Of a stretch of DNA of 64,000 bases, positions 50,970-64,000 are shown piece after piece. Under the pieces are notes generated by a model. The model saw only the letters and a program-made list of their open reading frames with translations, ran no database searches and had not been told where the DNA came from. The position numbers and the translations under genes are program-made. Positions within the stretch are counted from its first letter, which is position 1; every line of letters starts with the position of its first letter. The DNA is from Escherichia coli (GTDB lineage Bacteria; Pseudomonadota; Gammaproteobacteria; Enterobacterales; Enterobacteriaceae), in assembly GCF_046105845.1 (NCBI RefSeq), contig NZ_CP151004.1. One strand, 5' to 3'.

Positions 50970-52649
<1,680 letters not shown>

Positions 52650-52905
52650 TTATCGGGCTTTTCTTTAAGGGTAGTCATTCGCTCCGCCTGGTGGGCGACA
52701 AAGCGTGCGGTGGATCACGTTTATTAACCTGTCAAAAAATATAACGCACTAATATCCATGGAATTTATAAAAATACAGATTTCGTGTTGTTTTTCATTTT
52801 CAGAACATTCAATCCTACTCTCGCCGCAATCATGATATGCCATTCCTGATCTGGATAATAGGCATAGGCTATCTTATTGATAGTTTATATTCATGTAATT
52901 GATTG

Positions 52906-52919
52906 ATTCCTATCAAAAA
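52906..52919 (+). promoter_or_regulatory. Candidate FNR box upstream of yhjA
   Basis: TTGAT-TCCT-ATCAA is a perfect match to the FNR consensus TTGAT-N4-ATCAA, ~110 bp upstream of the yhjA ATG. Confidence 0.5.
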
Positions 52920-53023
52920 GCGTATCTCCCTGTTTTTTATGATGGCTTTGTCTCGCAGAGACGTTTGCAGCATTCTGGAAAATTTTCTGGGTCACAATAA
53001 CTCACCACCGTGAGGGAAGAATA

Positions 53024-54421
53024 ATGAAAATGGTCTCACGTATTACCGCGATCGGCCTGGCTGGCGTCGCGATTTGCTATTTAGGGTTATCTGGTTATGT
53101 GTGGTACCACGATAATAAACGCAGTAAACAGGCTGATGTTCAGGCATCTGCTGTCAGTGAAAATAATCAGGTTTTAGGCTTTCTCCGCGAAAAAGGATGC
53201 GACTATTGCCACACGCCTTCGGCAGAATTACCCGCCTATTATTATATTCCTGGCGCGAAACAGTTGATGGATTACGACATTAAGCTCGGATATAAATCTT
53301 TTAACCTCGAGGCCGTGCGTGCGGCTCTGCTGGCTGATAAACCTGTTTCGCAAAGCGATCTGAATAAGATTGAATGGGTGATGCAGTATGAAACTATGCC
53401 ACCAACGCGTTATACCGCGCTACACTGGGCGGGTAAGGTGAGTGATGAAGAGCGGGCGGAAATACTGGCCTGGATTGCAAAACAGCGCGCAGAATATTAC
53501 GCCAGTAATGATACTGCTCCGGAGCATCGCAATGAACCGGTGCAGCCCATCCCGCAAAAACTGCCTACCGATGCGCAAAAAGTGGCGTTGGGCTTTGCGC
53601 TGTATCACGATCCCCGTTTATCGGCTGATAGCACCATTTCATGCGCTCATTGCCATGCGTTGAATGCGGGGGGCGTCGATGGCAGAAAAACATCGATTGG
53701 TGTTGGTGGCGCAGTTGGGCCGATTAACGCGCCGACGGTATTTAACTCAGTATTTAACGTTGAGCAGTTCTGGGATGGTCGTGCGGCAACATTGCAGGAT
53801 CAGGCTGGTGGACCGCCGTTGAACCCGATTGAAATGGCGTCGAAATCCTGGGACGAAATTATTGCTAAGCTGGAAAAAGATCCGCAGCTTAAAGCTCAGT
53901 TCCTCGAAGTCTATCCGCAAGGTTTCAGTGGCGAAAATATTACTGATGCCATTGCTGAATTTGAGAAAACATTAATTACGCCGGATTCCCCATTTGATAA
54001 ATGGTTGCGTGGAGATGAGAATGCGCTGACGGCACAACAGAAAAAAGGCTATCAATTATTTAAAGATAATAAATGTGCAACTTGTCATGGTGGTATTATT
54101 CTCGGCGGACGTTCCTTCGAACCGTTGGGGCTGAAAAAAGACTTTAATTTTGGTGAAATTACGGCGGCGGATATTGGTCGTATGAATGTGACTAAAGAAG
54201 AGCGCGATAAATTGCGTCAGAAAGTACCCGGTTTACGTAACGTTGCACTAACGGCACCGTACTTCCATCGCGGTGATGTGCCGACGCTGGACGGGGCGGT
54301 GAAACTGATGTTGCGCTATCAGGTAGGCAAAGAGCTGCCGCAGGAGGATGTGGATGATATCGTAGCTTTCCTGCACAGTCTGAACGGGGTTTACACGCCG
54401 TATATGCAGGATAAACAATAA
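53024..54421 (+). CDS. yhjA: Di-haem cytochrome c peroxidase, 465 aa
   Basis: 465-aa ORF with haem-binding motifs CxxCH (CDYCH, CAHCH, CATCH); recognised as YhjA/Ccp. Confidence 0.93.
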   Translation: MKMVSRITAIGLAGVAICYLGLSGYVWYHDNKRSKQADVQASAVSENNQVLGFLREKGCDYCHTPSAELPAYYYIPGAKQLMDYDIKLGYKSFNLEAVRAALLADKPVSQSDLNKIEWVMQYETMPPTRYTALHWAGKVSDEERAEILAWIAKQRAEYYASNDTAPEHRNEPVQPIPQKLPTDAQKVALGFALYHDPRLSADSTISCAHCHALNAGGVDGRKTSIGVGGAVGPINAPTVFNSVFNVEQFWDGRAATLQDQAGGPPLNPIEMASKSWDEIIAKLEKDPQLKAQFLEVYPQGFSGENITDAIAEFEKTLITPDSPFDKWLRGDENALTAQQKKGYQLFKDNKCATCHGGIILGGRSFEPLGLKKDFNFGEITAADIGRMNVTKEERDKLRQKVPGLRNVALTAPYFHRGDVPTLDGAVKLMLRYQVGKELPQEDVDDIVAFLHSLNGVYTPYMQDKQ

Positions 54422-63318: not shown

Positions 63319-63846
63319 CTAAAAATAAGATGTGATACCCAGGGTGACGATGTCGCTCATACGTCTTAGTTTCAGCTTGTACATAATGTTGAATTTCTGA
63401 ATCTTTAATGTTTGTTGCGAAATATTGAGCGTCGACGTGATATTGCTTTCATTTTTATTTTTCAGAATCAGTTGCATAATTTTGAACTGATTATGTGAAA
63501 AACATAATTGTGAATTCTTATGGGGCAAGTGTTTACCATAAGTAATCTCAAGAAGATTTTTGATACTTTCTTTGCGGCTGACAAAATAAATAGGCGCTTT
63601 AGCTTTTAGTTTACTGATGTGATAAGGTGCCAAAACAATAATTCTCTCGGCATCTAATTTCTCCAGAAATTTAATCGCTTCTTCATCAAGGATATGATTG
63701 TGATAGGTATCAATGATAACCTTGAAGGGTTTATTACCTACTTTTTTGATCTCTGACAGGGAATTGATTTTTATCATTTCGTGATTATCTTTCAACTGCC
63801 AAAAGCCCTGTAAAAGAAAAGAATCTTTCGTCATGAGAAAAATCAT
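63319..63846 (-). CDS. gadE: LuxR-family acid-resistance activator, 175 aa
   Basis: ORF-track frame 63319..63924 trimmed to ATG (CAT on + strand at 63844-63846) giving MIFLMTKDSFLLQGFWQLKD…; C-terminal LuxR HTH. Confidence 0.92.
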   Translation of the reverse strand: MIFLMTKDSFLLQGFWQLKDNHEMIKINSLSEIKKVGNKPFKVIIDTYHNHILDEEAIKFLEKLDAERIIVLAPYHISKLKAKAPIYFVSRKESIKNLLEITYGKHLPHKNSQLCFSHNQFKIMQLILKNKNESNITSTLNISQQTLKIQKFNIMYKLKLRRMSDIVTLGITSYF

Positions 63847-64000
63847 AACTTGCTCCTTAGCCGTTATCGTTTCGAACATGTCATCCTTTTCATTATTTAC
63901 ATCCTTGTCCGAATCGTTGTTCAATATAGTAAACGCCTATAAGAACTTTGCCCTTCGTGAACTAATACGTCTATTAACACTAATCAATGCTTCAGATTTA

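What the first reader, a model, noticed from the sequence alone, without database searches (positions are those of the whole stretch)
52906..52919. Perfect FNR consensus box upstream of yhjA
TTGATTCCTATCAA matches TTGAT-N4-ATCAA exactly and sits ~110 bp upstream of the di-haem cytochrome c peroxidase gene, consistent with anaerobic induction.
Basis: partly seen in the sequence, partly recalled or inferred. Interest (0 to 1): 0.15.

Follow-up and report, generated by a model that had tools for sequence, protein, structure and literature searches.

The report
Known FNR site of ccp promoter
This is the already published binding site for the oxygen sensor FNR in front of the E. coli cytochrome c peroxidase gene (ccp/yhjA); it is real, well placed and conserved, but ordinary and not new.

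Summary
TTGATTCCTATCAA is in the window, but at 52903-52916, 3 nt left of the stated coordinates. It is the only perfect TTGAT-N4-ATCAA in 64 kb (0.08 expected). The locus is the E. coli treF / ccp (yhjA) intergenic region. The only good -10 downstream (TATGAT, 52938-52943) puts the box centre at about -40.5, the class II activation position. Immediately upstream (52858-52894) is the window's best OxyR-type site.

A motif-blind alignment of ccp upstream regions from 12 enterobacterial lineages conserves only the four OxyR tetrads, the two FNR half-sites and an nAnnAT -10. The N4 varies freely, and the OxyR-to-FNR spacing is fixed, apart from one +11 bp insertion in a Providencia. The module follows ccp, not treF.

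FNR plus OxyR control of yhjA was published in 2007 (Partridge, Poole & Green), and this exact site is listed in the 2013 FNR ChIP-seq study. There it had no ChIP-seq peak in anaerobic glucose medium and lay under H-NS and IHF, whereas ChIP-qPCR in another study was positive.

Already known; low interest.

The parts
52903..52916 (.). FNR box TTGATTCCTATCAA (palindromic core; centre at 52909.5)
   Evidence: Exact match and the only one in the window. Identical to the yhjA/treF site TTGATAGGAATCAA (reverse complement) in PMC3688515 Table S6. Half-sites carry 1.72 bits/column across 12 lineages, against 0.47 for the N4 and 0.43 for background; the motif-blind MAFFT alignment shows the same. Intact in at least 5322 of 5426 E. 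coli genomes.
52858..52894 (.). OxyR-type site ATAG-N7-CTAT-N7-ATAG-N7-(TCAT), ending 8 bp before the FNR box
   Evidence: 2 mismatches out of 16 specified bases; the next best in the window has 4. The tetrads are conserved (1.58 bits) and the spacers are not (0.67 bits). The site starts 51.5 bp upstream of the FNR centre in every genus that has both, except P. burhodogranariea at 62.5. Within E. coli the variation falls only in the spacer (52865, 52866, 52868). OxyR activation of yhjA comes from the literature.
52938..52943 (+). Predicted -10 hexamer TATGAT (no -35 element, as expected for an activator-dependent promoter)
   Evidence: The only hexamer with at least 4/6 matches, A2 and T6 between the box and 52975. 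An nAnnAT hexamer lies 21-22 nt after the box in the other genera, and 23 nt in E. albertii. Invariant in the sampled E. coli alleles.
52949..52951 (+). Predicted transcription start (inferred, not mapped here); 52950 puts the FNR centre at -40.5 and the OxyR site at -92 to -56
   Evidence: Inferred from the -10 position. The published primer-extension result could not be read.
52950..53023 (+). Predicted 5' UTR (about 74 nt), with inverted repeats at 52950-52962 (GTCTC-GCA-GAGAC) and 53001-53014 (CTCAC-CACC-GTGAG, next to the Shine-Dalgarno sequence)
   Evidence: Sequence; the terminator-like scan hit on the minus strand at 53014-53001; folds have non-significant z-scores.
53024..54421 (+). 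ccp (yhjA) coding sequence, 465 aa: membrane-anchored cytochrome c peroxidase with three haem sites
   Evidence: ORF; RefSeq annotation ccp/b3518; Pfam Haem_bd 3e-30, CCP_MauG 5e-57, Cytochrom_C 1.5e-11.
52896..52908 (-). IHF consensus match AATCAATCAATTA (WATCAANNNNTTR), overlapping the left FNR half-site; a possible competing nucleoid-protein site
   Evidence: The only match in the 404-bp intergenic region. An IHF ChIP-chip region at MG1655 3667035-3667586 covers the FNR site at 3667319 (PMC3688515 Table S4). This is weak evidence: given an FNR half-site, only about 6 further bits are needed.

Best explanation
The box is the FNR operator of the ccp (yhjA) promoter, a two-activator promoter. 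Shown by sequence: a perfect FNR core sits 21 nt upstream of the only good -10 and no -35 is present, so the box replaces the -35 region at about -40.5. Inferred from established knowledge of class II FNR promoters: under anoxia the [4Fe-4S] FNR dimer binds here and contacts RNA polymerase directly. Shown by sequence: a four-tetrad OxyR-type site abuts the box on the upstream side (about -92 to -56) at a spacing that is fixed across genera. Inferred: OxyR bound there supplies the second input, probably through the polymerase alpha C-terminal domain, by helping FNR compete with H-NS/IHF, or both. Together the two sites work as an AND gate: ccp is made when oxygen is absent and H2O2 is present. 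[quoted passage not shown] The surrounding DNA is AT-rich (39% GC against 51% for the window) and in MG1655 lies under H-NS and IHF. This plausibly explains why FNR occupancy was not seen by ChIP-seq without peroxide.
For: Exact and unique consensus match. Class II geometry from the only -10. OxyR-type site with 2/16 mismatches, the best in the window. 32 of 40 ccp-orthologue loci have a box with at most 1 mismatch in the 400 nt upstream (26 perfect), against a background of 0.029 per 300 nt in the same loci. About 11 different N4 sequences occur with conserved half-sites. The motif-blind MAFFT alignment of 12 lineages conserves only the OxyR tetrads, the FNR half-sites and nAnnAT. OxyR-FNR spacing is constant at 51.5 bp, with one exception of +11 bp, one helical turn. 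A -10-like hexamer lies 21-22 nt after the box in all genera with a good box. The module is present in genera where treF is not the neighbour. The box is unchanged in at least 98% of E. coli genomes, and sampled variation avoids the box, the -10 and the tetrads. Literature: FNR and OxyR regulation of yhjA; ChIP-qPCR binding in vivo; OxyR induction under hypoxia and the respiratory role; 2-fold higher anaerobic expression (Table S12).
Against: No FNR ChIP-seq peak at this site in anaerobic glucose minimal medium. [quoted passage not shown] The transcription start was not verified here, and the generic sigma-70 scan did not call this promoter because it lacks a -35. The PatSer score of 14.16 is mid-range, below the best sites at about 17. 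The proposed OxyR mechanism (alpha-CTD contact or anti-silencing) is inference only.
Confidence: 0.9

Rival explanations
1. The box is a silent consensus match: sequence-perfect but permanently occluded by H-NS/IHF, with no regulatory role in vivo.
For: PMC3688515 Table S6 lists it among predicted sites lacking a ChIP-seq peak and overlapping H-NS and IHF enrichment. No unmasked peak is recorded in delta-hns/delta-stpA. An IHF consensus overlaps the left half-site.
Against: Half-sites are conserved across at least 8 genera with a free N4 and fixed spacing to the OxyR site and the -10, which neutral or occluded DNA would not keep. ChIP-qPCR was positive. FNR dependence of yhjA expression is published. 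The ChIP-seq was done without H2O2, so OxyR was not activated.
Confidence: 0.04
2. The box mainly serves the divergent gene treF (cytoplasmic trehalase), or both genes, rather than ccp alone.
For: DISTILLER predicted treF as a high-confidence FNR target and ChIP-qPCR was positive for it. treF is about 2-fold higher anaerobically in delta-hns/delta-stpA (Table S11). The intergenic region is shared.
Against: The box lies 284-297 bp from the treF start codon but at class II distance from a ccp-oriented -10. ChIP cannot separate two genes 404 bp apart. The OxyR-FNR module persists upstream of ccp in Providencia, Hafnia, Yersinia, Trabulsiella and others where treF is not adjacent.
Confidence: 0.05
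3. The palindrome is bound by another CRP/FNR-family protein (CRP), or is a chance palindrome in AT-rich DNA.
For: CRP and FNR sites are related. The window-level chance of one perfect match is not negligible (8 of 100 shuffles).
Against: The half-sites read TTGAT/ATCAA, not the GTGA/TCAC that CRP prefers (sequence). Cross-genus conservation of exactly the FNR-specific positions rules out chance.
Confidence: 0.01

Closest known systems
E. coli K-12 yhjA (ccp) promoter as described by Partridge, Poole & Green 2007 (Microbiology 153:1499; cited)
   Same: It is the same locus and the same site. The K-12 intergenic sequence is identical to the window from 52866 to 53030, covering the box, most of the OxyR site, the -10 and the UTR. 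Regulation by FNR and OxyR is what that paper's title states.
   Different: Nothing of substance. The window is another E. coli strain: 7 differences from K-12 in the 404-bp intergenic region, one of them (T for C at 52865) in an OxyR spacer and none in the box, the -10 or an OxyR tetrad. The paper's own site positions could not be read here.
Class II FNR promoters with an upstream second activator and nucleoid-protein repression, e.g. nirB and nrfA (FNR at -41.5 with NarL/NarP upstream counteracting IHF/Fis); from my own knowledge of the Busby/Browning literature, not checked here
   Same: FNR box overlapping the -35 position; a second, signal-specific activator bound just upstream; nucleoid proteins (IHF, H-NS) over the region.
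   Different: The co-activator is OxyR (peroxide) rather than NarL/NarP (nitrate). Whether OxyR acts as an anti-repressor here is untested.
'Silent' high-scoring FNR sites masked by H-NS/IHF/Fis (Myers et al. 2013, PMC3688515)
   Same: This exact site is in that class in Table S6: PatSer 14.16, no peak, H-NS + IHF.
   Different: Unlike most silent sites it has independent genetic and ChIP-qPCR support and a deep phylogenetic footprint, so it is conditionally used rather than non-functional.
FNR/ANR-controlled bacterial cytochrome c peroxidase genes in other bacteria (e.g. Neisseria gonorrhoeae ccp, Pseudomonas aeruginosa ccpR); from my own knowledge, not checked here
   Same: Oxygen-limitation control of a periplasmic haem-c peroxidase through an FNR-type box.
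   Different: Those are soluble or lipoprotein di-haem enzymes. The E. coli protein has an extra N-terminal haem domain and a membrane anchor and adds OxyR control.

Membership tests
FNR binding site (E. coli FNR box) | Inverted repeat TTGAT-N4-ATCAA | tested here: met
   10 of 10 core bases match at 52903-52916.
FNR binding site (E. coli FNR box) | FNR-type rather than CRP-type half-site (T, not G, before TGA) | tested here: met
   Both half-sites read TTGA/TCAA. The same holds in all orthologous boxes.
FNR binding site (E. coli FNR box) | FNR occupancy in vivo or in vitro | not testable with these tools
   The literature is mixed: ChIP-qPCR positive (PMC2690998), but no ChIP-seq peak in anaerobic glucose minimal medium (PMC3688515 Table S6).
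Class II FNR-activated promoter | Site centred near -41.5 relative to the transcription start, replacing the -35 element | tested here: inconclusive
   The predicted -10 TATGAT 21 nt after the box gives -40.5 +/- 1, and no -35 is present. The same spacing holds in other genera. The start itself was not mapped here and the 2007 paper is not held.
Class II FNR-activated promoter | FNR-dependent, anaerobic expression of the downstream gene | not testable with these tools
   Reported in the literature. yhjA +O2/-O2 = 0.50 in Table S12; I inferred the direction of that ratio from the Table S11 footnote.
Functional regulatory site (phylogenetic footprint) | Motif positions conserved in orthologous promoters while neighbouring positions diverge | tested here: met
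   Half-sites 1.72 bits against 0.47 for the N4 and 0.43 for background; 0 of 100000 random column sets reach that value (motif-anchored). Confirmed by a motif-blind MAFFT alignment.
OxyR binding site | Four ATAG-type elements at 10-11 bp intervals (ATAGnt-N7-CTAT-N7-ATAG-N7-CTAT) | tested here: met
   52858-52894 matches 14 of 16 bases; both mismatches are in the promoter-proximal tetrad. 0-3 mismatches... more precisely 1-3 mismatches in most orthologues, with variable spacers.
Bacterial cytochrome c peroxidase (CCP_MauG family) | CCP_MauG domain plus a C-terminal cytochrome c domain with CXXCH motifs | tested here: met
   PF03150 at 4.6e-57 and PF00034 at 1.5e-11, plus an extra N-terminal PF14376 Haem_bd; three CXXCH motifs. 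It is therefore the three-haem YhjA subtype, not a plain di-haem enzyme.
IHF binding site | WATCAANNNNTTR consensus with IHF occupancy | tested here: inconclusive
   Consensus match at 52896-52908 on the minus strand, inside the MG1655 IHF ChIP-chip region. The match borrows ATCAA from the FNR half-site, so it is weak.

The most novel reading that the evidence does not exclude
The OxyR site and the FNR box may form one rigid, helically phased unit conserved across Enterobacterales: fixed 51.5-bp offset, with the single exception an 11-bp, one-turn insertion. In this reading, FNR can occupy its perfect box only after OxyR has displaced or remodelled an H-NS/IHF complex. That would be a hierarchical AND gate, and it would explain why a consensus-perfect site is ChIP-seq-silent in anoxic cells without peroxide. 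As far as I could see in the papers available here, neither the cross-genus rigidity of the spacing nor the dependence of FNR occupancy on OxyR has been described. I could not read the 2007 and 2017 primary papers, so part of this may already be known.
Probability: 0.2. Interest if true: 0.35.

Novelty: already known. Interest (0 to 1): 0.1.

Why it matters
It matters little as a discovery. The site, its regulator and the physiology (H2O2 respiration under anoxia) are all published. It does show that the first-stage reader can recognise a genuine operator from raw sequence. It is also a clear example that a perfect consensus match does not predict occupancy. This perfect site had no ChIP-seq peak, whereas the 1-mismatch site at 63764-63777, inside gadE in the same window, did. 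The fixed OxyR-FNR spacing across genera is a small, testable addition to what is known about how the two inputs are combined.

Tried and rejected
(1) The primary papers could not be read. Partridge et al. 2007, Khademian & Imlay 2017 (PMC5565418) and PMC8043972 are not held, so the published transcription start and site positions are not cited.

(2) A literature search for promoter positions was badly designed: min_terms=2 did not force 'yhjA', and it returned only irrelevant papers. A search for 'yhjA' plus 'transcription start site' found only the genomic SELEX papers, which place a constitutive promoter at gadA rather than ccp.

(3) The generic sigma-70 scan did not call the ccp promoter. 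It proposed ATGATA-16-GATAAT at 52832-52859 instead. I rejected this because it would put the FNR box downstream of +1, it overlaps the OxyR site, and its -10 depends on the window-specific A at 52855 (K-12 and most sampled alleles have G).

(4) 5'-terminal hairpin idea. GTCTC-GCA-GAGAC at the predicted +1 shows compensatory-looking changes in Citrobacter, but the folding z-scores (-0.5 to -2.1) are not significant, and Providencia and Yersinia lack it. I left it as a passing note.

(5) treF as the real target: rejected because of the gene-neighbourhood result.

(6) The motif-anchored conservation statistic is partly circular, so I repeated it with a motif-blind MAFFT alignment, which gave the same pattern.

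Full report
OBSERVATION. The 14-mer TTGATTCCTATCAA is in the window at 52903-52916. It is the only perfect TTGAT-N4-ATCAA in 64 kb; dinucleotide-preserving shuffles give 0.08 per window, and 8 of 100 shuffles had at least one match. A single match is therefore only mildly surprising by itself, and the case rests on position and conservation.

The box ends 107 nt before the ATG (53024) of a 465-aa ORF. That ORF is annotated in RefSeq as ccp, cytochrome c peroxidase, b3518, the former yhjA. The divergent gene is treF (50970-52619, minus strand), and gadA follows ccp. The 481-bp region is present in 5422 of 5426 complete E. coli genomes.

The protein has Haem_bd, CCP_MauG and Cytochrom_C domains and three CXXCH motifs. 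'Di-haem' is thus the family's name, not this enzyme's haem count.

ANATOMY. Between the box and 52975 there is one acceptable -10, TATGAT at 52938-52943, 21 nt after the box and with no -35 hexamer. A start 6-8 nt further on puts the box centre at -39.5 to -41.5, and at -40.5 for a start at 52950. That is the class II position, where FNR takes the place of the -35 element.

At 52858-52894, ending 8 bp before the box, lies ATAG-N7-CTAT-N7-ATAG-N7-TCAT. It matches the four-tetrad OxyR pattern at 14 of 16 bases, and the next best match in the window has 4 mismatches. With a start at 52950 this site spans about -92 to -56.

The intergenic region is 39% GC, against 51% for the window. An IHF consensus (AATCAATCAATTA, minus strand, 52896-52908) overlaps the left half-site. 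This is weak evidence, because the FNR half-site already supplies the ATCAA.

CONSERVATION WITHIN E. COLI. In K-12 and four of the most divergent alleles sampled, all variation in the promoter core falls in an OxyR spacer (52865, 52866, 52868) or in the box-to-(-10) spacer (52922, 52926, 52929). The box, the -10 and all four tetrads are invariant. A 32-nt query around the box needs a 28-nt exact word that necessarily spans 52898-52921, and it hits 5322 of 5426 genomes. One exception is strain fS54a, where an IS5-family element is inserted inside the box with a CTAT duplication.

CONSERVATION ACROSS GENERA. A scan of one genome per species with the Ccp protein returned 41 loci. In the 400 nt upstream, 32 of the 40 loci I scanned have a box with at most one mismatch, and 26 of those are perfect. 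The background in the same loci is 0.029 per 300 nt.

The genera with such a box include Escherichia, Citrobacter, Providencia, Trabulsiella, Hafnia, Enterobacillus and Yersinia, plus an enterobacterial MAG. Pluralibacter, Entomohabitans and Buttiauxella have 2-mismatch versions at the same position.

- **N4:** the central four bases take about eleven different sequences.
- **Information content:** the half-sites hold 1.72 bits per column, against 0.47 for the N4 and 0.43 for background.
- **Spacing to the OxyR site:** the OxyR-type site starts 51.5 bp upstream of the box centre in every genus that has both. The one exception is Providencia burhodogranariea at 62.5 bp, an 11-bp, one-turn insertion.
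- **-10 element:** an nAnnAT hexamer follows the box at 21-22 nt, and at 23 nt in E. albertii.

The stack used for the information values was anchored on the motifs themselves, which is partly circular. I therefore repeated the comparison with a motif-blind MAFFT alignment of 12 lineages. Its only conserved blocks are ATaGg..A..CTAT...A..gATAG, TTGATa....TCAA and At.AT.

treF is the upstream neighbour only in Escherichia and Citrobacter, yet the module persists elsewhere, so it belongs to ccp.

LITERATURE. FNR and OxyR regulation of yhjA was published by Partridge, Poole & Green in 2007. I could not read that paper. It is summarised in PMC10301912 as dual regulation, with transcription restricted to low oxygen plus peroxide, and it is curated as 'FNR - yhjA - activator - anaerobiosis' in PMC4207228.

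PMC2690998 reports ChIP-qPCR binding of FNR in vivo at yhjA and at treF. [quoted passage not shown]

In PMC3688515 Table S6 this exact site (TTGATAGGAATCAA, yhjA/treF, MG1655 coordinate 3667319, PatSer 14.16) is a predicted site with NO ChIP-seq peak in anaerobic glucose minimal medium. It overlaps H-NS and IHF enrichment.

- The H-NS regions are 3661953-3667384 (anaerobic) and 3661345-3668418 (aerobic).
- The IHF region is 3667035-3667586.
- In the same study yhjA is about 2-fold higher anaerobically (Table S12 value 0.50). I inferred the direction of that ratio from the Table S11 footnote.

Those cultures received no H2O2, so OxyR was not activated.

MECHANISM. The best-supported account, at about 0.9 confidence, is a two-activator promoter. 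FNR binds at about -40.5 under anoxia (class II) and OxyR binds immediately upstream, giving an AND gate for 'no oxygen, peroxide present'.

- **Shown here:** the sites, their geometry relative to a predicted -10, and their co-conservation at fixed spacing.
- **Taken from the literature:** FNR and OxyR dependence of expression, and in vivo binding by ChIP-qPCR.
- **Inferred:** how OxyR helps, whether by alpha-CTD contact or by relief of H-NS/IHF occlusion.

RIVALS. There are three.
1. A permanently silent, occluded site. The ChIP-seq result favours it, but the deep footprint, the ChIP-qPCR result and the published genetics contradict it.
2. An operator for treF. The distance and the gene-neighbourhood result contradict it.
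3. A CRP site or a chance palindrome. The FNR-type half-sites and their conservation contradict it.

COMPARISON AND NOVELTY. This is the same object as the published yhjA promoter, so it is already known. It works like other class II FNR promoters with an upstream co-activator under nucleoid-protein repression (nirB, nrfA; from my own knowledge). It also sits in the 'silent high-scoring site' class of Myers et al.

It suggests a testable hierarchical model in which OxyR first opens the promoter for FNR; I put its probability at about 0.2.

VERDICT. Novelty: already known. Interest: 0.1.

Noticed in passing
L006 (NZ_CM176577.1, E. coli strain fS54a), locus 1536-2760; equivalent to window 52910-52913: An IS5-like ISKpn26-family element (frameshifted transposase) is inserted inside the FNR box with a 4-bp CTAT duplication (TTGATTCCTAT|IS|CTATCAA). 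This is a natural knock-out of the site. Another genome (NZ_CM194533.1, H12) matches the region in two pieces and may carry a different insertion.
   Followed up: partly
window 63764-63777 (inside the ORF 63319-63924, minus strand, which by coordinate mapping to Table S6 should be gadE): The 1-mismatch FNR-type site TTGATTTTTATCAT (reverse complement ATGATAAAAATCAA) maps by coordinate arithmetic to the 'gadE' site at MG1655 3656458. In PMC3688515 Table S6 that site DOES carry an FNR ChIP-seq peak, unlike the perfect ccp box. A second 1-mismatch site, GTGATAGGTATCAA, lies at 63700-63713.
   Followed up: partly
L023 (Providencia burhodogranariea), upstream of ccp: The OxyR-type site and the FNR box are 11 bp further apart than in every other genus (62.5 against 51.5 bp). 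This is a one-helical-turn insertion that keeps the two proteins on the same face of the DNA.
   Followed up: partly
window 52896-52908, minus strand: An IHF consensus match (AATCAATCAATTA) overlaps the left FNR half-site, inside the IHF ChIP-chip region reported for MG1655. IHF may compete with FNR here.
   Followed up: partly
window 52950-52962: The inverted repeat GTCTC-GCA-GAGAC sits exactly at the predicted +1. Citrobacter species keep the pairing with different bases (GTCC/GGAC, GTCTT/AAGAC, GTCT/AGAC). Hafnia, Trabulsiella and a MAG have unrelated hairpins at the same place. Folding z-scores are not significant, and Providencia and Yersinia lack it. It could be a 5'-terminal mRNA stem-loop or another operator.
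   Followed up: partly
window 53001-53014: The inverted repeat CTCAC-CACC-GTGAG lies directly before, and overlaps, the Shine-Dalgarno region (GTGAGGGAAG) of ccp. It is conserved in Citrobacter and could affect translation initiation.
   Followed up: no
whole window: Matches to TTGATNNNNATCAA with up to 2 mismatches number 65, against 33.6 +/- 5.6 in dinucleotide-preserving shuffles, and none of 100 shuffles reached 65. Most lie inside genes. The likely cause is codon or higher-order composition rather than regulation, but I did not examine it.
   Followed up: no
window 52865 and 52855: The window's strain has T at 52865 (an OxyR spacer) where K-12 and all four other sampled alleles have C. 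It has A at 52855 where K-12 and three others have G; this A creates a spurious GATAAT -10-like hexamer that the promoter scan picked up.
   Followed up: yes
L044, L046 (Lachnospiraceae MAGs), L047 (Chloracidobacterium MAG), L032 (Saezia sanguinis): Ccp relatives at 36-73% identity occur outside Enterobacterales, including a 73%-identical copy in the betaproteobacterium Saezia. None has the OxyR-FNR module upstream.
   Followed up: no
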